This document shows, one piece after another, positions 8,635-24,877 of a DNA stretch of 32,000 bases. Position 1 is the stretch's first letter, and every line of letters starts with the position of its first letter. Under the pieces are notes generated by a model, which searched no databases, was not told the DNA's origin, and was given only the letters and a program-made list of their open reading frames with translations. Source of the DNA: Kiritimatiella glycovorans (GTDB taxonomy: Bacteria; Verrucomicrobiota; Kiritimatiellia; Kiritimatiellales; Kiritimatiellaceae). A program made the translations under genes and the position numbers. Location: assembly GCF_001017655.1 (NCBI RefSeq), contig NZ_CP010904.1, forward strand, positions 1,770,001 to 1,802,000, given 5' to 3'.

Positions 8635-8687
8635 GTATCGTCGATCAGCGGGGAGCGCAACTTCGGGATGCGCATTTCCTGAGGACG

Positions 8688-8831
8688 CAGCAGTTCTCAT
8701 TATGGCCGCATTCCGACCGCGGACGGCGTGGCAGCCGTCCCTCCCGAGTCGATATCCGACGCATTTTCGGGCACTGGGAGGGTCGGGTGCCACCCCGACC
8801 GAAAAGGGTGAAGCCATAATGAGAATCGCTG
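8688..8831 (+). mobile_element. MITE-like element, copy 1 (144 bp, complete)
   Basis: TIRs are CAGCAGTTCTCATTATGGC and GCCATAATGAGAATCGCTG. Flanked by a perfect 9-bp direct repeat CTGAGGACG (8679-8687 and 8832-8840). 143/144 identical to copy 3. Confidence 0.85.
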
Positions 8832-8903
8832 CTGAGGACGCCGGGTTCTTGCCGCGGGCGGGGCGGCGGTGATAGCCTGACCTCTCCTTCAGGGAGTGCG
8901 CTT

Positions 8904-13632: not shown

Positions 13633-13684
13633 AACGGCATTATAACGGCCCGTTCCGCGAAATCAATGCCCGCGGTCACCGCGG

Positions 13685-13817
13685 CAGCCGTTCTCATTAT
13701 GGCCGCATTCCGACCGCGGACGGCGTGGCAGCCGTCCCTCCCGAGTCGATATCCGACGCCTTTTCGGGCATTGGGAGGGTCGGGTGCCACCCCGACCGAA
13801 AGCGCCATCACCATCGC
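13685..13817 (+). mobile_element. MITE-like element, copy 2 (degenerate right end)
   Basis: Matches copies 1 and 3 from the left TIR through ...CCCCGACCGAAA with 2 substitutions. The right TIR is replaced or eroded (GCGCCATCACCATCGCC). No target duplication is recognisable. Confidence 0.7.
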
Positions 13818-13984
13818 CCACACAGAAAAACCGCCCGCAGACCGTATCAGGCCCCGCCGCACTGCTCGCATAATACACCCCCCGTTGAGTTCATGCAGGG
13901 AACCATAAGGATCGGGATTTTGTTCGAAAAGTTTTTACTTCCAAACTCTCGTGACCGCGGCAACCTCCGTGATTCATCCGCCGT

Positions 13985-16189: not shown

Positions 16190-17335
16190 CTACCGGCTGA
16201 TCCGCCGCGACCACACGGTGTTCCACGCATGCTCGGCGCGCAGGAGGACGTCGCCCAGCACGTCGCGAGACGAGCCTCCCGCCCGCTCATCCGCCCCGCT
16301 CCGGAATCGGATCCGCGTCCGGTCGTCAAACCGCAGAAGCAGGGAGCCGAGCACGTCGCCACGGGCGGGACGCACGGCACTGCGAGCGACCGGGGCGCTC
16401 GCCCGTTCCGGCGCGCGGTACGGAAGACCGCATTCCCCGGCGGGCAGCCGCCTCCCGCGCCGTCTGCGCACGATTACCCCCGCCGCCAGCGCGGCGAGCG
16501 TCAGCACGCCGGTGGCGGGCTCGGGAATCGCAAAAACCCCGTAGGTGGAGGCATGATCGATATTCGCCCAGACGAGATTGTGTTCGGTATCCACGCCGTA
16601 GTCCCCGGTCACATCGGTCGGCGCTCCGAGCACCAGTTGCCCTCCGGGCGATACGTTGCTGTCCGGCCCGGCCTTCACCCAGGTGCTGTTGTCCTCGTCA
16701 TACCAGTAGAGCCGGAGATCGTCTTCGGAAAGCCCGGCCTCCGCGACATCGGCCTCTTCATACGGCAGCCTCAATGTCGCGTTATTGGTAAGGAGCGAAA
16801 AATTCTCCAGCGCGATGGTCTGTCCAAGGCTGATGGCTCCGGAAGGAAGTCCGGCGACACCGAACTCGAGTTCGCTGTATCCCTCCGCGTTGAAGGTGCC
16901 GTCCGCGAGCGCGCCCTCGAGGATCGCCCCGGGCTTGAGCAGGAATCCCTTCTGGTCCGAGGTGGCGTTCTCCCTCGCCTGGCCGACGATCGCCCCGCGG
17001 TCGTTGATGTCGTAAGCCACTTCGAGCGTCAACCCCGCGTTTGTGGCGGCGGGGGCCAGCGAGTTCAGGTCGATCATCCCCGTCAATCCGCTGTACACGT
17101 AGGCGCGCGAGGACCCGTCGGCGGTATTGGCGGTGCCGACGACCACGTTCGCCTCATTGATGCCGAAGGCGTCGCTCTCCGCGCCGCCGAGCGTGCCCAG
17201 ATCGGTCAGCGTGCCGCTCTGCCAGATGAAGGCGTGGCCCTGATCCTCCGCCACGGTGGAATCGCCGACCACCACCCCGCTGCTGTTGATATCGCGCCGC
17301 GTGGTCAGCGCATGGACCACCTCTTCGCCGGGAAG
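16190..17335 (-). pseudogene. HAF-repeat PEP-CTERM protein, 5'-truncated by the IS256-family element
   Basis: HAF-family repeats (GHAFIWQSGTLTDLGTLGG, AFGINEANVVVG, YDINDRGAIVG) and PEP-CTERM signature IPEPATGVLTLAALAAGVIVRRRRGRR, followed by an 84-aa tail. No signal peptide. The upstream part of the track ORF runs antisense through the IS. Confidence 0.7.
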
Positions 17336-17422
17336 TGTCCCGTTGACTGTTGAAACTTGAAGGCGGTCTCCTGAGCGTCCATGTTGGACGCTCGGGGCAA
17401 ACCAACCCGAAAGGAGACCGCC

Positions 17423-18970
17423 ATGAGTGACAATAGCGTCCTTGAAGCCCTTGGACAAGTTGAACCGTCTGCAGCAGGAGATGTTTTCCGTGACTGGCTG
17501 CGTGGTGAAATGCGAACCCTGATCGCCGATATTCTGGCTGAAGAGGTCACAGAACTGTGTGGTCCGGCCTACAAGCCGGCAGGGGACAGAGGCTGCCGAC
17601 GTGCCGGCGGAACCCGCGTAGGACTTCGAATTGACGGTATTGATGAGGAGATCCGCAAGCCGCGTGTACGTCGCCATGAGGCAGACACATCGAAGGAGGT
17701 CAGGCTTAAAAGTTACGACGCGGTCAACAGGGCCGACGACCTTCGTGACCGTATCTTGCGTGCCACAGCTGCCGGAGTCAGTTCACGTGATCAGAAAACC
17801 TTGTATCCCGATTCAGCGCCCGGACGCAGCAGGGTTTCCCGCGCCTGGATTGTCGAGGGCCGACAGCGCATACAGAAGCTCCGTGACCGCGACCTGAAGT
17901 CCGAGAGGTTCTTCTGCATGCTGCTGGACGGCATTGTACTGTCCGAGGATCTCAGCGCCATTGTGGGGCTGGGCATTACGCTGGACGGCCGCAAAGTTAT
18001 GCTGGATTTTGAAATAGGCGCACAGGAATCGACAGAAGTGTGTGACGCATTGCTCGACCGCAGCCGTTCTCATTATGGCCGCATTCCGACCGCGGACGGC
18101 GTGGCAGCCGTCCCTCCCGAGTCGATATCCGACGCATTTTCGGGCACTGGGAGGGTCGGGTGCCACCCCGACCGAAAAGGGTGAAGCCATAATGAGAATC
18201 GCTGGCTCGACCGGCTTGTCCACCGCGGTCTTGAGTTCGAGGGCGATCCGTTGGCGGTTCTCGACGGTTCTCGGGCACTTCATAACAGCGTCTTGAAGCA
18301 TTTTCCGCGAGCGCGCATTCAACGATGCCTGGTGCATAAGGAACGAAATATTAAGCGTTGTCTCTCCAGGCGTCATCACGGCAGCGTGAGCGACGTTTTC
18401 AAGCGTCTCCGCTCCGTGGAAGGCGAAGAAGCCGGACGTGAAGCACTCGCCGATCTGGAACGCTTTCTGAGCCGGCACAGCCACAAGGCCCTGGAATCCC
18501 TGCACGAGGCCGGTGAGGAGCTCATTACGGTTCACAAGCTGAATGCGCCGTCCACTCTACACACCACGTTGACGAACACAAACTGCATCGAGAACCCGTT
18601 CCGAAACACACGCGCAAAAATCGGGCGGGTGAAGCGTTGGCGCGCAGAGACGGATCAGGCGGAACGCTGGCTGGCCTATTCGCTTCTGAGGGCCGAGAAA
18701 GGGTTCCGTCGAATCAAAGGCTATCGTCAGATCCCGGTGCTTTTGAAATCCCTGGGCTGGCCATCGGAAGCTGTTGAGGCGTCGCTCCGCTCCGCCCTTG
18801 GCCCTCCGGGCCATCCCGCCTCCGGCGGGAACGGGCTCCACTCCACGACGCCTCACCCCCAGGCAGAGAGCGAAGCGAACTGCCGAACAGGGACTGGACA
18901 AGTGAATGACAAGGAACTACATCGAAATGAAGACCGAGACCGCCAACGAGTTTCAACAGGATTCGGGACA
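17423..18970 (+). pseudogene. IS256-family (mutator-type) transposase, interrupted by the MITE
   Basis: ATG 17423 follows AAGGAGA. Hallmarks are LDG...GI..DG.K..L, ES...., and after the insert RGLEF..., VLDGS.AL, FPRARIQRCLVHKERN and NCIENPF. An in-frame TGA at 18182 lies inside the MITE. The downstream frame stays open to 19078, beyond the right IR. Confidence 0.8.
18061..18204 (+). mobile_element. MITE-like element, copy 3 (144 bp, complete, nested in the transposase gene)
   Basis: Same TIRs as copy 1, flanked by a perfect 9-bp direct repeat GCTCGACCG (18052-18060 and 18205-18213). Removing the element plus one repeat restores ...CDALLDRLVHRGLEFEGDPLAVLDGS... in frame. Confidence 0.9.
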
Positions 18971-19063
18971 TCCCCCGACGCGCGCGCGAAGCGAATGCGT
19001 CCAGAGCACGAGCAGATAGACCGCGATCGCTTCGACCAAAAGTATGACTACACTGTGATTCAT
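18955..19063 (-). pseudogene. 5' fragment of a membrane-protein gene cut off by the IS256-family element
   Basis: ATG 19063 follows GAAGGGG. It encodes the hydrophobic MNHSVVILLVEAIAVYLLVLWTHSLRARVG..., and the frame terminates inside the IS right IR. Confidence 0.3.
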
Positions 19064-19147
19064 AGCCCCTTCGGTTAAACAGGATCATTGTACTCGGGTT
19101 TTTCGGGTCCGGCAACAGCAATGAGACACCGCACCGGACCGCCCGGA

Positions 19148-20021: not shown

Positions 20022-21686
20022 ATGAAAAAGCTGATTCCCATTATCATAATCATCGCGGTTGCCATCTTTGTCGCGGAGTTCGCGGTGCGCCGGATGGCCG
20101 GGCCCGCGCTGCCTCCCGGCAGAACGCTATACGCGCCGAATACCTTCTACTATTTCGGCATGCAGAACGCTCCCGGCATGGGAGCTTACCTCGCGATGAC
20201 CGATCAGGGTGAAGGACTGAGCGAGACCTTCGACATGGACACCGCGGAGGCGGAGGCCTGGGAAAGCTGGATCGACCGGATTCGCGGCGTGCATTTCGGT
20301 GTGGAATCGTTCGCTGTCGCGCCCGTGGCGGTACATGCGGCGCTGGTGCTGGACGGCAGCTTTGAGACCTCCCCCGTGCCGCTGCTCCCCGAAGAGGCTG
20401 CCGAAAAACTGAAGCCGCTCGAGCCCTACCGCGAAGTCGGCATCACCTCGGTGGATATGCCCGCCGATGCGCCCGGGGAACTGGGGATATTCATCACCGA
20501 ACCGCACCAAAACCGGGTGGTCGTCGGCCTGAGCCTCGAGACCGTGAAGGGAATCATCGACCGCATGGAGGACGGCGGACCGTCGCTCGCCGACAGCGAG
20601 GCCCTGCAACGTCTCTACCGCGAGGTCGGCGCCGGGAAGGCCGACATGGTCCAGTACGTCGATACGCAGCGCTACATTGACGAACTCTTCGCCGCGCTCA
20701 CCGCCCTGCCCTTCCCCACCGGCCAGCAGGGGCTCGGCTTCATGAACAAGACGCTGCGCGAGCAGGGTCTGTCGATCATCCGCGACATCTTCCGGCTGGA
20801 AGACTTCGGTCCGGGGATATCGGTAAGTGACGCCCCGTTCCACCAGGTGACCTCCTGCAGCGAAGTCGATCCCGACAATCCCTTCTACCGCCTGCTCGAG
20901 CCCGACGGGACGATCGAGCTTCCGCGCGTACCGGCCTCGGCTTACCGCGTGCAGTTCTGGCGTCTTTCGGACCCCGTACTGGCCCGGGAAAAACTGGAGG
21001 GACTCGTCCGGGAGGCCTTCCGCAGGATGCGCGAAATCGCCGGACCGCAGACCAAGATCCCGGGTGCGCCGGTGGCCGCGTTCGAGGCGCTGGCCGGGTT
21101 CAGGCTTGCGGACCTGGATGCCCTCTGGAACGGCGAAATCGGACTGTGGCAGGGCACCAACCCCGCGAATCTCCAACAGCCCAGAATGTGTTTCGTCCTC
21201 GGGCTCAAGGATCCCCCCGCGATGCAAGATTTCCTGCGCCATCTTCCGGCGCTCAAAAACGCGGAGCTGACCGAACGCGGGGGCATCACCTCGTTCGGCC
21301 AGGCGGTCCACTGGCATTACACCGGCGGCGACCGTCTCCTGATCTCGGCCGACCGGGCGTTCCTCGCGGAGAGCATCGATGCCTCCGCGCAGGTGCTCAA
21401 CGACCGCGAGTGGTTCCGGAAAAAACGGGCCGCGCTTCCGGATGAGAGCACCCTGATCCAGTACACCGACTACGGCGCGATGCTCTCGCCGGCCTTCGCC
21501 CGGGCCGCCACGACAACAGCGCCTCTCCGGGATCTCTTCTCCGCGATGGAGGACTTCCGCGTCATGGCCGGGACCCACGCCGCCGACGGGCTCCTGAAGA
21601 CGCGCACCTGGAGCAGCTTTGAGTTCGACGCCGACCGCTTCCGTCGCGCGCTCGAAAAGCTGGCCGCGGAACGTTCCGGGGAATGA
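20022..21686 (+). CDS. Hypothetical membrane-anchored/secreted protein (554 aa)
   Basis: ATG follows AAGGAGCCCGGAG. N-terminal anchor MKKLIPIIIIIAVAIFVAEFAV. High GC3. No motif I can name. Confidence 0.6.
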   Translation: MKKLIPIIIIIAVAIFVAEFAVRRMAGPALPPGRTLYAPNTFYYFGMQNAPGMGAYLAMTDQGEGLSETFDMDTAEAEAWESWIDRIRGVHFGVESFAVAPVAVHAALVLDGSFETSPVPLLPEEAAEKLKPLEPYREVGITSVDMPADAPGELGIFITEPHQNRVVVGLSLETVKGIIDRMEDGGPSLADSEALQRLYREVGAGKADMVQYVDTQRYIDELFAALTALPFPTGQQGLGFMNKTLREQGLSIIRDIFRLEDFGPGISVSDAPFHQVTSCSEVDPDNPFYRLLEPDGTIELPRVPASAYRVQFWRLSDPVLAREKLEGLVREAFRRMREIAGPQTKIPGAPVAAFEALAGFRLADLDALWNGEIGLWQGTNPANLQQPRMCFVLGLKDPPAMQDFLRHLPALKNAELTERGGITSFGQAVHWHYTGGDRLLISADRAFLAESIDASAQVLNDREWFRKKRAALPDESTLIQYTDYGAMLSPAFARAATTTAPLRDLFSAMEDFRVMAGTHAADGLLKTRTWSSFEFDADRFRRALEKLAAERSGE

Positions 21687-21690
21687 ACAA
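21662..21690. repeat. Left copy of the 29-bp direct repeat bracketing the TA/IS30 islet
   Basis: GGCCGCGGAACGTTCCGGGGAATGAACAA covers the last codons and TGA of CDS 20022-21686. It recurs at 24849-24877 with 2 mismatches. Confidence 0.8.
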
Positions 21691-22448: not shown

Positions 22449-22667
22449 CTCGCTTTCCTGCCGCCGAACGGCCGCGTCGCAATCAACGCGGCCATTCCCC
22501 GGACGCTGGCGTCCGGGGAACGCTTCACCTAACGGGAAGAGAGGGTTATCAGCCCGCACATTGCGTCATTTTATCCCTGGATGTGCAGGTTTTTTAGAGG
22601 GCGGCAATCCTCACGGATCAGGAGGCCAGGTGAGCGAAAAGGGACCAGGGTGAATATGATTCGCCTT

Positions 22668-22761: not shown

Positions 22762-22965
22762 ATGTGACGCGAGCGGACTTGCCGCCGCTCACCATAAAAA
22801 TCCACGAATAACCTTTTTTACGTTATTCCCCCCGCACATCACATGATACACCACACCTCACCGCTCATGACGACTCCTCGACCTTGACATGGGAGAAAGC
22901 TATCACCGGAACGAAAAACTTTTCGTCATTCCAAATGACGCAATGTGCGGGCCTTTCTCTTTCTG

Positions 22966-23586: not shown

Positions 23587-24794
23587 TGAGAAGTGTAATG
23601 TGAAATGCCGCAGGTATAGGAGAGAGCGTTCCATGCCGTGGTTCGCTATCCTTTGTGGTCTTACAACAGGACAACAGAGGAAGGAGACGGCATGGAACAG
23701 AATCAGAATAGCAGGAAGGGCAAGCACTTGACGAGGGTGGAGCGCATGGTGATTGAGCGGATGTCCCGTGGGGGGATCCCCCCACGGGACATCGCGGCCG
23801 CCTTGGAGCGTCACCCGCGTACGATCCAGCGTGAGCTCAAGCGCGGGACGGTGACCCACCGGGACTCGGAGTGGCGGGAATACCGGACCTACAGCAGCGA
23901 TCGCGGCCAGGACCTCCATGATTACCACGCCACCGCAAGGGGGCCCGGTCTGAGGCTGGGCCGCAACTATGCGCTGGCCGAATTCATCCGTTGCCGCATT
24001 GTGGAACATAAGGAATCGCCCGATGTAGTCGCCTTTCGGATGCGTCAGGCCGGTCTGGAGGAGGTGGTGTGCACCAAGACGATCTATAACTACATCGATA
24101 AAGGCGTCATTTTCGGGCTCAGCAACGAGTCACTGTGGGAGAAGCGTAAGCGAGCCAAGCGGCGCAAACGCGGCGCTCGGCGGTTGGCGAAGCGGATTTC
24201 CAAAGGCAAAAGCATCGACCAGCGTCCCGAAGGAGCCGAGACGCGCGAGGAGTTCGGACACTGGGAGATGGACCTGGTGACCGGCCCCACGCGCGGGTCC
24301 AATGCCGCCCTATTGACCCTGGTGGAACGCAGACATCGGATCACGATCATTCGCAAGCTGCCTGATAAGAGCCAAGCCAGCGTGCTCAAAGTTCTCAGAG
24401 GGCTCGAGCGTGAACATGGCTCCCGCTGCTTCCGTCAGATCTTCAAGACCATCACGGTCGACAACGGCAGCGAGTTCCTGGACTTCGAAGCCTTAGAAGC
24501 CTCTTCCTTCTCGAAGCAACAGCGAACCCAGATCTTCTACGCCCACCCATACTCATCCTGGGAACGCGGATCGAACGAGAACGGCAACAGGATGATCAGA
24601 CGGTTCGTGGCCAAGGGCCGGGATATCGCGCGCTTTACCAAGCAGAAAATCCGCGACATCGAGCTATGGATCAATAACTACCCGCGCCGGATCCTCGACT
24701 TCATGACCCCTCACGAACTCTTCACGAACGAACTCAAAACGATCTCATAAATGAAACAAGACCACTACATGCGGCATTTGGGTTTACAACCTAC
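23587..24794 (+). mobile_element. IS30-family insertion sequence (1208 bp)
   Basis: Imperfect IRs share ...GT(G)TAA...AAATGCCGCA at both ends. Bounded by an identical 16-bp direct repeat CGCTTCCAACGCAGCG (23571-23586 and 24795-24810). Confidence 0.8.
23692..24750 (+). CDS. IS30-family transposase (intact)
   Basis: ATG follows AGGAAGGAGA. N-terminal HTH region HLTRVERMVIERMSRGGIPPRDIAAALERHPRTIQRELKRG. DDE region HWEMDLV..., TVDNGSEF, SWERGSNENGNRMIRRF. Confidence 0.9.
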   Translation: MEQNQNSRKGKHLTRVERMVIERMSRGGIPPRDIAAALERHPRTIQRELKRGTVTHRDSEWREYRTYSSDRGQDLHDYHATARGPGLRLGRNYALAEFIRCRIVEHKESPDVVAFRMRQAGLEEVVCTKTIYNYIDKGVIFGLSNESLWEKRKRAKRRKRGARRLAKRISKGKSIDQRPEGAETREEFGHWEMDLVTGPTRGSNAALLTLVERRHRITIIRKLPDKSQASVLKVLRGLEREHGSRCFRQIFKTITVDNGSEFLDFEALEASSFSKQQRTQIFYAHPYSSWERGSNENGNRMIRRFVAKGRDIARFTKQKIRDIELWINNYPRRILDFMTPHELFTNELKTIS

Positions 24795-24848: not shown

Positions 24849-24877
24849 GGCCGCGGAACATTCCGGGGAATGAGCAA
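24849..24877. repeat. Right copy of the 29-bp direct repeat bracketing the TA/IS30 islet
   Basis: GGCCGCGGAACATTCCGGGGAATGAGCAA matches 27/29 with 21662-21690 and keeps the same reading frame and TGA. Confidence 0.8.

What the first reader, a model, noticed from the sequence alone, without database searches (positions are those of the whole stretch)
18052..18213. A 144-bp MITE is inserted in frame inside an IS256-family transposase gene with a perfect 9-bp target duplication
The transposase reading frame breaks between ...CDALLDR and LVHRGLEF.... The intervening 144 bp has 19-bp terminal inverted repeats (CAGCCGTTCTCATTATGGC / GCCATAATGAGAATCGCTG, 17/19). It is flanked by GCTCGACCG on both sides. 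Deleting the element plus one repeat (153 bp, a multiple of 3) restores a continuous IS256-type sequence. As it stands, a TGA at 18182 inside the element kills the transposase. This is direct evidence of a mobile element parasitising another mobile element. The TIRs do not resemble the ends of either IS in this window, so the autonomous partner lies elsewhere. A 9-bp duplication is compatible with IS4-, IS1- or IS256-type transposases.
Basis: seen in the sequence. Interest (0 to 1): 0.7.

Follow-up and report, generated by a model that had tools for sequence, protein, structure and literature searches.

The report
MITE nested inside an IS256-type transposase gene
A 144-bp non-coding mobile element has jumped into, and knocked out, the transposase gene of another mobile element in a Kiritimatiella genome; it is a correct but ordinary case of one transposon parasitising another, and its likely driver is a very widespread, poorly classified transposase family.

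Summary
The element is 144 bp (18061-18204), with 19-bp terminal inverted repeats (17/19) and a perfect 9-bp duplication, GCTCGACCG. It interrupts an IS256-family transposase gene, and an in-frame TGA at 18182 truncates the protein.

- The window holds two more copies. One is complete (8688-8831), 143/144 identical, with its own perfect 9-bp duplication CTGAGGACG. One is truncated (13685-13801).
- An intact, essentially identical transposase from the same genome (most likely Kiritimatiella glycovorans) lacks the segment.
- Three related intact IS copies from other sources also lack it. Their DNA shows one clean 153-bp gap with a single copy of the target.

I also identified the probable partner family. 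Elements of 1437-1453 bp encode a ~430-aa DDE transposase that RefSeq labels "ISNCY family" and that is only distantly IS4-like. They carry the same terminus (CAGCAATTCTCATT...) and make exactly 9-bp duplications.

That terminus bounds many unrelated short elements (70-533 bp) across numerous bacterial phyla.

I could not test whether K. glycovorans itself carries the partner.

Verdict: a real, recently active MITE, and a new member of a known kind. Interest is modest.

The parts
18061..18204 (+). MITE copy A (144 bp), the element of the finding
   Evidence: Read directly. It is 143/144 identical to copy B. It is about 70% self-complementary over its whole length. The single-strand DNA fold is -43.2 kcal/mol, z = -6.7. 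No Rfam family matches.
18052..18060 (.). Left copy of the 9-bp target-site duplication, GCTCGACCG
18205..18213 (.). Right copy of the 9-bp target-site duplication, GCTCGACCG
   Evidence: Related intact IS copies carry a single GCTGGACCG or GCTGGGGCG at this place.
18061..18079 (+). Left terminal inverted repeat, CAGCCGTTCTCATTATGGC
   Evidence: It matches 14-18 of 19 positions of the termini of full-length IS copies that were retrieved by protein homology alone.
18186..18204 (-). Right terminal inverted repeat (reads CAGCGATTCTCATTATGGC on the - strand)
18093..18174 (.). Internal imperfect hairpin (26-nt arms, 85% complementary) that forms the lineage-specific core
   Evidence: (I2). The core has no similarity to any fetched locus.
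18182..18184 (+). In-frame TGA inside the MITE that truncates the transposase after 254 of its codons
17331..18975 (+). Host IS256-family insertion sequence (1645 bp with the insert, 1492 bp without)
   Evidence: The ends were set by DNA alignment to three related IS copies and by the inverted repeat I1. The transposase matches NF033543 at 175.5 bits.
17423..18060 (+). 5' part of the IS256-family transposase gene, upstream of the insertion
   Evidence: Its sequence matches P0001 of K. glycovorans.
18214..19078 (+). 3' part of the IS256-family transposase gene, downstream of the insertion (the frame runs past the IS end at 18975)
8688..8831 (+). MITE copy B (144 bp, complete). It is intergenic, between a TatD-type gene (- strand, start 8622) and a YacP/NYN gene (+ strand, start 8904).
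8679..8687 (.). Left 9-bp duplication of copy B, CTGAGGACG
8832..8840 (.). Right 9-bp duplication of copy B, CTGAGGACG
13685..13801 (+). MITE copy C. It consists of the left 117 bp with 2 mismatches, and the right end is missing. It is intergenic, 52 bp upstream of a glgC-type gene (- strand, start 13632).

Best explanation
The 144-bp segment is a non-autonomous DDE-type transposon (a MITE). It has no gene of its own. Its two 19-bp ends are binding and cleavage sites for a transposase supplied in trans, and integration at a 9-bp staggered cut produced the flanking GCTCGACCG repeats (inferred from the anatomy and from what is known of DDE transposition). Here it landed in the middle of an IS256-family transposase gene, between the first and second catalytic aspartate regions. 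It brings an in-frame TGA, so this IS copy can no longer make its transposase. The most likely mobilising enzyme belongs to a large family of ~430-aa DDE transposases carried by 1.44-1.45-kb insertion sequences. RefSeq labels these 'ISNCY family', and they are only distantly related to IS4. They carry the same terminus and also make 9-bp duplications. The near identity of copies A and B (143/144), and of the broken and intact host transposases, shows that the movement was recent. Shown: the element's anatomy, the extra copies, the empty sites, and a transposase family with the same ends and the same duplication length. Inferred: that this family mobilised these copies, and that a partner was recently present in this genome.
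For: Anatomy and duplication. Extra copies, one with its own perfect 9-bp duplication. Empty sites: the intact P0001 from the same 2,949,723-bp genome reads ...CDALLDRLVHRGLEF..., and three related IS copies show a single 153-bp gap with one copy of the target. Partner: L018 6436-7888 is a 1453-bp element with these ends and a 434-aa ORF. Homologues retrieved by protein alone sit in 1437-1444-bp elements ending CAGCA[AG]TTCTCATT..., with perfect 9-bp duplications in 6 of 8 copies in one genome plus L130, L131 and L134. Copy B's left end is 19/19 identical to the L122 right end. Across the family, 18 of 50 MITE-sized and 9 of 17 IS-sized pairs have perfect 9-mers; at 8 bp none match and at 10 bp only one (an IS-sized pair); 31 of 50 have at most 1 mismatch against 0 of 50 in a shifted control. 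Catalytic residues D127, D216/D217 and E336 are invariant in the partner alignment. DDE_Tnp_1 is hit by 16 of 23 members.
Against: No autonomous copy is in the window. The MITE core has no similarity to any sampled full-length IS, so it is not a simple deletion derivative of those. L018 itself lacks a matching duplication. Transposition has not been demonstrated experimentally for any member of this family that I could find.
Confidence: 0.88

Rival explanations
1. The element is a MITE, but it is mobilised by one of the transposases visible in the window: the IS256-family enzyme (which also makes 8-9-bp duplications) or the IS30-type enzyme.
For: IS256-family elements are known to make 8-9-bp duplications (established knowledge). 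At least three copies of this IS exist in the genome.
Against: The host IS ends (GGAAGTGTCCC.../...GGGACATCCCC) and the IS30-type ends (TGTAATGTGAAATGCC...) bear no resemblance to CAGCCGTTCTCATTATGGC. An unrelated transposase family carries exactly this terminus.
Confidence: 0.04
2. The 153 bp are a native, variable part of this transposase gene (a lineage-specific insertion or linker), not a mobile element.
For: The insert length is a multiple of three.
Against: It contains an in-frame stop. The same 144 bp occur in two intergenic places. An intact sister copy and three related IS copies lack it exactly.
Confidence: 0.01
3. The repeat is a structured RNA gene or a REP-like regulatory palindrome spread by recombination or by a RAYT-type enzyme, rather than a DDE-mobilised element.
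For: It has strong self-complementarity and a stable fold (z = -6.7). Copies B and C lie just upstream of genes.
Against: No Rfam family matches. No promoter-like or terminator-like sites were found. Perfect 9-bp duplications of different sequence at each complete copy, and termini shared with a DDE transposon family, are the signature of transposition. A secondary regulatory effect is not excluded.
Confidence: 0.04
4. The element is a MITE of this superfamily but is now stranded: K. glycovorans has no functional partner, and the copies were mobilised by a transposase that has since been lost or was only transiently present.
For: No partner is in the window. This MITE subfamily was not found by exact match in the metagenome collection. 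The core is unrelated to sampled IS copies.
Against: The 143/144 identity between copies, and the undecayed host gene, argue for very recent activity. The genome is reported to carry 75 transposase genes (PMC5148204), which were not examined here.
Confidence: 0.25

Closest known systems
Prokaryotic MITEs in general (e.g. Correia, RUP, MaeMITEs, QMITE2; reviews PMC3184786, PMC10969869)
   Same: Small size and no coding capacity. Terminal inverted repeats shared with an autonomous IS. Fixed-length target duplication. Foldback structure. Multiple copies, including truncated ones. Mostly intergenic, with occasional insertions into genes.
   Different: The terminus, the lineage-specific core and the host phylum (Kiritimatiellota) differ. 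I found no description of this terminus in the searchable literature.
Chunjie MITE of Geobacter uraniireducens Rf4 (Chen et al. 2008, as summarised in PMC3184786 and PMC6042816)
   Same: It has 9-bp direct repeats (example ACGACCGGT), TIRs of about 21 bp, a size of 178-235 bp, a stable foldback, and partial copies that lack an end.
   Different: Chunjie is described as A+T-rich, whereas this element is 62.5% G+C. I could not obtain Chunjie's TIR sequence, so whether it belongs to the same terminus superfamily is untested.
IS4-family elements IS10 and IS50 (Tn10/Tn5), DDE_Tnp_1 superfamily
   Same: 9-bp target duplication (established knowledge). A terminus that starts with C. A single DDE transposase. 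The partner family gives weak DDE_Tnp_1 and NF033591 matches centred on the R-x3-E region.
   Different: The partner transposase scores far below the curated IS4 cut-off (at most about 9.6e-9 in E-value, against a 152-bit threshold). It carries a conserved CxxC motif after the first aspartate. A profile search finds no sequence-detectable relative in the PDB. RefSeq files it as ISNCY, meaning 'not classified yet'.
Nezha MITE / ISNpu3 of Nostocales (Zhou et al. 2008, summarised in PMC3184786)
   Same: It is a cyanobacterial MITE of 130-170 bp whose TIRs match an IS from Nostoc punctiforme. A distant homologue of the partner transposase in N. punctiforme pNPUN02 has a left end CAGCAATTCTCATCATG.
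   Different: The cited Nezha direct repeat is 10 bp (CATTATCTAC, PMC6042816), not 9. I could not check Nezha's TIR sequence or the identity of ISNpu3. This link comes from memory and is not a tested relationship.

Membership tests
MITE (non-autonomous DDE-type transposon) | Short (under about 600 bp) and without a transposase gene | tested here: met
   It is 144 bp. No ORF of its own was listed, and the host gene's frame meets a stop (TGA at 18182) inside it.
MITE (non-autonomous DDE-type transposon) | Terminal inverted repeats | tested here: met
   19 bp, 17/19 complementary.
MITE (non-autonomous DDE-type transposon) | Target-site duplication of fixed length at independent copies | tested here: met
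   GCTCGACCG at copy A and CTGAGGACG at copy B, both perfect 9-mers. The family-wide length is 9 bp.
MITE (non-autonomous DDE-type transposon) | Multiple copies in the genome, and an empty site without the element | tested here: met
   Three copies in 32 kb. Empty sites are seen in P0001 from the same genome and in three related IS copies at the DNA level. The genome-wide copy number was not obtainable.
MITE (non-autonomous DDE-type transposon) | Termini shared with an autonomous element that encodes a transposase | tested here: met
   1437-1453-bp IS copies in other genomes carry the same terminus and make 9-bp duplications.
MITE (non-autonomous DDE-type transposon) | The autonomous partner is present in the same genome | not testable with these tools
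   None is in the window. The K. glycovorans genome could not be reached.
IS256 family (the host element) | Transposase above the curated family threshold | tested here: met
   NF033543 at 175.5 bits against a cut-off of 150. Pfam Transposase_mut at 103.8 bits against 21.
IS256 family (the host element) | Terminal inverted repeats bounding an element of about 1.3-1.5 kb | tested here: met
   A 45-nt imperfect inverted repeat (I1). The ends are conserved in three related copies. The element is 1492 bp without the MITE.
IS256 family (the host element) | 8-9-bp target duplication flanking the element | tested here: not met
   The flanks TCTTCGCCG (17322-17330) and CGACGCGCG (18976-18984) do not match (read using the boundaries). 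This may reflect rearrangement between copies.
IS4 family (for the partner transposase) | Score above the curated NCBIfam IS4 thresholds | tested here: not met
   NF033591 is hit by 22 of 23 members, but the best E-value is 9.6e-9 and L018 scores 24.5 bits against a 152-bit cut-off.
IS4 family (for the partner transposase) | DDE_Tnp_1 catalytic domain with a D, D, E triad and a Y-R-E-K signature | tested here: inconclusive
   D127, D216/D217, E336, R332 and K344 are invariant. PF01609 is matched by 16 of 23 members (best 4e-8), but L018 itself is below the gathering score (18.7 against 23 bits). No conserved Y lies three residues before R332, and the K sits at E+8 (read from the consensus).
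IS4 family (for the partner transposase) | 9-bp target duplication, as in IS10 and IS50 | tested here: met
Chunjie MITE family | The same TIR sequence and the same partner IS | not testable with these tools
   Only the size, the TIR length and the 9-bp direct repeat are available from secondary sources. The original paper is not held.

The most novel reading that the evidence does not exclude
The 19-bp terminus CAGCAATTCTCATTATGGC defines a superfamily of MITEs that has not been described as such. Its members have unrelated cores and lengths of 70-533 bp. They occur in many bacterial phyla (Kiritimatiellota, Lentisphaerota, Verrucomicrobiota, Planctomycetota, Proteobacteria, Cyanobacteriota, Chloroflexota, Omnitrophota and others). 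All would be serviced by one highly conserved, still unclassified ('ISNCY') transposase family with at least 7,900 members. The K. glycovorans subfamily would be a private, recently active branch that may lack a resident partner.
Probability: 0.3. Interest if true: 0.45.

Novelty: new member of a known kind. Interest (0 to 1): 0.3.

Why it matters
For this genome, the finding documents recent transposon-on-transposon warfare. One copy of an actively spreading IS256-type element was silenced by a MITE. Two further MITE copies sit directly upstream of housekeeping genes (a TatD/YacP divergent pair and glgC), where they could alter expression. More broadly, this IS and MITE family seems to fragment metagenome assemblies: many termini lie at contig ends, and the transposase mostly sits on 1.4-1.6-kb orphan contigs. 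Knowing its signature (terminus plus 9-bp duplication) would help annotation and binning. It would also give ISfinder-style curation a handle on a large 'not classified yet' group. None of this overturns current understanding of MITEs.

Tried and rejected
- I tried to reach the rest of the K. glycovorans genome through the look-up of encoding contigs with P0001, P0039 and three window ORFs. None was on record, so no genome-wide copy count or partner search was possible.
- Two exact-match metagenome scans for MITE-specific sequence (a 33-mer from the core and a 21-mer at the TIR/core junction) both returned 0 hits.
- L032's pair of ends 2,720 bp apart looked like an autonomous element. It encloses a multihaem cytochrome gene and a substrate-binding-protein gene, and it resolves into two ~100-bp MITEs.
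- Rfam gave no match.
- Promoter and terminator scans around copies A and B found nothing.
- A PDB profile search with the partner transposase alignment gave no hit.
- A literature search for the terminus sequence returned only an unrelated primer match.
- The ISMae2 and ISNpu3/Nezha leads, recalled from memory, could not be verified from the papers held. The Chunjie paper is not held.
- The supplement of the K. glycovorans genome paper is not held.
- No clear target-sequence preference emerged from 27 perfect duplications.

Full report
**Observation**

- GCTCGACCG occurs at 18052-18060 and again at 18205-18213.
- Between the two copies lie 144 bp (18061-18204).
- The ends are CAGCCGTTCTCATTATGGC and, on the other strand, CAGCGATTCTCATTATGGC. 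They match at 17 of 19 positions (I4).
- The upstream reading frame (17381-18184) ends at a TGA at 18182-18184, inside the element.
- Removing 18061-18213 (153 bp) restores one continuous frame reading ...CDALLDRLVHRGLEFEGDPLAVLDGS....
- The restored 500-residue product is a clear IS256-family transposase. It scores 175.5 bits on NCBIfam NF033543 (cut-off 150) and E=1.3e-29 on Pfam Transposase_mut.

**More copies in the same window**

Searching the window for the terminus with up to 3 mismatches gave five ends, where shuffles predict none.
- Copy B is a complete second copy at 8688-8831. It is 143/144 identical to copy A, and the single difference lies in the terminus. It has its own perfect 9-bp duplication, CTGAGGACG, at 8679-8687 and 8832-8840. 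It sits between a divergent TatD-type gene and a YacP/NYN gene.
- Copy C starts at 13685 and keeps 117 bp with 2 mismatches. It has lost its right end. It lies 52 bp upstream of a glgC-type gene.
- A self-comparison shows this is the only dispersed repeat family in the window. The element is about 70% self-complementary along its whole length.
- As single-stranded DNA it folds to -43.2 kcal/mol (z = -6.7).
- It matches no Rfam family. No promoter-like or terminator-like sites appear around copies A and B.

**Empty sites**

A protein search with the restored transposase returned P0001, 'IS256 family transposase [Kiritimatiella glycovorans]'. It lies on a contig of 2,949,723 bp and is reported as 100% identical over 94% of the query.
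- The contig length equals the published chromosome length of K. glycovorans L21-Fru-AB. The published G+C of 63.31% fits the window's 63.7% (PMC5148204). The window is therefore most likely from that genome.
- P0001 reads straight through the site...CDALLDRLVHRGLEF....
- By eye I saw one substitution (V for L in ...SDVFKRL...) before the two proteins diverge at the IS end. The broken copy has not decayed since the insertion.
- P0002 (89% identical) and P0004 (83%, from a Lentisphaeria MAG) also lack the segment.
- At the DNA level, three related IS copies (L139, L140, L141) align along the whole element. They show a single gap of exactly 153 bp. A single GCTGGACCG or GCTGGGGCG sits where the window has GCTCGACCG twice.
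- The same alignment places the host IS ends at 17331 (GGAAGTGTCCC...) and 18975 (...GGGACATCCCC). That gives 1492 bp without the MITE.

**The partner**

- A 17-base pattern should give about 69 chance hits in the whole collection. However, 93 of the 130 ends have AA at the two free positions, where chance would give about 6%. In addition, 35 ends run into the end of the stored stretch within 150 nt, often a contig end. The hits are therefore overwhelmingly genuine.
- They come from Kiritimatiellia, Victivallales/Lentisphaerae, Verrucomicrobiota, Planctomycetota, Alpha-, Gamma- and Deltaproteobacteria, Cyanobacteriota, Anaerolineae, Omnitrophota, Desantisbacteria and others.
- Pairing ends gave 50 MITE-sized elements of 70-533 bp whose interiors are unrelated between lineages.
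- One 1453-bp element, L018 6436-7888 in a Thermohalobaculum MAG, is filled by a 434-aa ORF.
- That protein has at least 7,923 homologues. They are typically about 430 aa, at least 59% identical among the best 120, and mostly on contigs of 1.4-1.6 kb.
- Homologues retrieved by protein identity alone sit in 1437-1444-bp elements ending CAGCA[AG]TTCTCATT.... Six of eight copies in one genome have perfect 9-bp duplications, and so do L130, L131 and L134.
- Copy B's left end is 19/19 identical to the right end of the L122 element.
- Over all pairs, the flanks match perfectly as 9-mers in 18 of 50 MITE-sized and 9 of 17 IS-sized elements. At 8 bp none match, and at 10 bp only one (an IS-sized pair). 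31 of 50 MITE-sized pairs have at most one mismatch, against 0 of 50 in a shifted control.
- So the MITE in the window shares both its terminus and its duplication length with this IS family.

**What the partner is**

- The only names that sources give are 'ISNCY family transposase' (P0131; RefSeq plasmid annotations in Nostoc, Gloeothece and Acaryochloris at about 40-43% identity).
- An alignment of 23 members has invariant D127, D216/D217 and E336, a conserved CxxC after the first aspartate, and R332-x3-E336.
- 16 of 23 members hit Pfam DDE_Tnp_1, and 4 hit DDE_Tnp_1_assoc.
- 22 of 23 weakly hit the NCBI IS4 model, far below its cut-off.
- A profile search of the PDB found nothing.
- It is therefore a distant IS4-superfamily DDE transposase without a curated family. 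It works like IS10 and IS50 in making 9-bp duplications (established knowledge), but it fails the IS4 membership thresholds.
- Even the distant Nostoc punctiforme copy keeps CAGCAATTCTCAT at its left end.

**Mechanism**

Shown:
- a short, non-coding, foldback element with conserved ends;
- two independent insertions with different perfect 9-bp duplications;
- empty sites;
- a transposase family whose own elements have the same ends and the same duplication length.

Inferred:
- That transposase binds the 19-bp ends in trans, excises or copies the element, and integrates it at a 9-bp staggered cut.
- The copy at 18061 destroyed one IS256-type transposase gene by introducing a premature stop before the second catalytic region.

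The core (18080-18185) has no similarity to any sampled IS or MITE; similarity stops 21-22 nt from each end. This subfamily is therefore lineage-specific, and it is not a deletion derivative of the sampled elements. It was not found in the metagenome collection by exact match at two sites.

**Limits**

- I could not search the remainder of the K. glycovorans genome, which is reported to hold 75 transposase genes (PMC5148204). The copy number and the presence of a resident partner remain open.
- I had no access to ISfinder.
- The Chunjie MITE of Geobacter has the same format (178-235 bp, 21-bp TIRs, 9-bp repeats).
- Nezha's cited repeat is 10 bp.

**Verdict**

The finding is correct and complete as far as it went. 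Its interpretation is supported and now extended with sister copies, empty sites and a probable partner family. MITEs inserted into other mobile elements are an expected consequence of transposition, so this is a new member of a known kind with modest interest. The most novel reading still open is that this nearly invariant terminus marks a cross-phylum MITE superfamily that has not yet been described as such, tied to a very large unclassified transposase family.

Noticed in passing
window 18900-19078; P0001, P0039, P0002, P0004; L139-L141: In K. glycovorans the IS256-type transposase frame has no stop codon inside the element. It reads through the right end (...STGFGTSP at about 18975) into whatever flanks it, so three copies have three different C-terminal tails. 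Related elements elsewhere stop about 60 bp before the end (...NDKE*).
   Followed up: partly
window 17322-17330 and 18976-18984; flanks 16190-17330 (-) and 18976-19051 (-): The host IS256-type element has no matching 8-9-bp duplication. Its left flank is a truncated PEP-CTERM gene with repeats that I read by eye as HAF-type, and its right flank looks like the start of a different gene. This suggests an IS-mediated rearrangement or deletion rather than a simple insertion.
   Followed up: no
window 21662-21690 and 24849-24877: A 29-bp direct repeat (27/29) duplicates the 3' end and stop codon of the gene ending at 21686. It brackets about 3.2 kb of lower third-position G+C that contains the IS30-type element (23594-24788). 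This may be a small integrated island with att-like ends.
   Followed up: partly
window 22552-22571 and 22933-22952: A perfect 20-nt inverted repeat pair (GCCCGCACATTGCGTCATTT / its complement) encloses 361 bp inside that same 3.2-kb stretch. Its nature is unknown; it may be another small non-autonomous element.
   Followed up: no
window 23760-23793: A perfect 34-bp palindrome (GATGTCCCGTGGGGGGA|TCCCCCCACGGGACATC) lies inside the IS30-type transposase gene.
   Followed up: no
window 13676-13684 and 13952-13960: The left flank of truncated copy C (TCACCGCGG) recurs at 8/9 (TGACCGCGG) 267 bp downstream. By my rough estimate the chance of this is about 0.03. The MITE's last 27 bp may have been replaced by about 150 bp of unrelated, more A+T-rich DNA, rather than simply deleted.
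   Followed up: partly
L062 9-81 and L103 4693-4765 (Victivallales MAG CAZKRK01): A minimal 73-bp member of the superfamily consists of two 19-bp termini around a short G+C hairpin and is almost a perfect palindrome. At L103 it has a perfect 9-bp duplication (CATCGGCGG). Many contigs of this MAG end in the same element.
   Followed up: partly
L032 3589-6308 (MAG JAFGSM010000266): Two ~100-bp MITEs of the superfamily, with their outer ends in inverted orientation, bracket 2.5 kb that carries a multihaem cytochrome gene and a substrate-binding-protein gene. The layout resembles a composite transposon, but the outer flanks do not match.
   Followed up: partly
35 of the 130 retrieved termini run into the end of the stored stretch within 150 nt, often a contig end, and the partner transposase is mostly found on orphan contigs of 1.4-1.6 kb. 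This IS and MITE family appears to be a frequent cause of assembly breaks, and the IS is probably under-represented in binned genomes.
   Followed up: no
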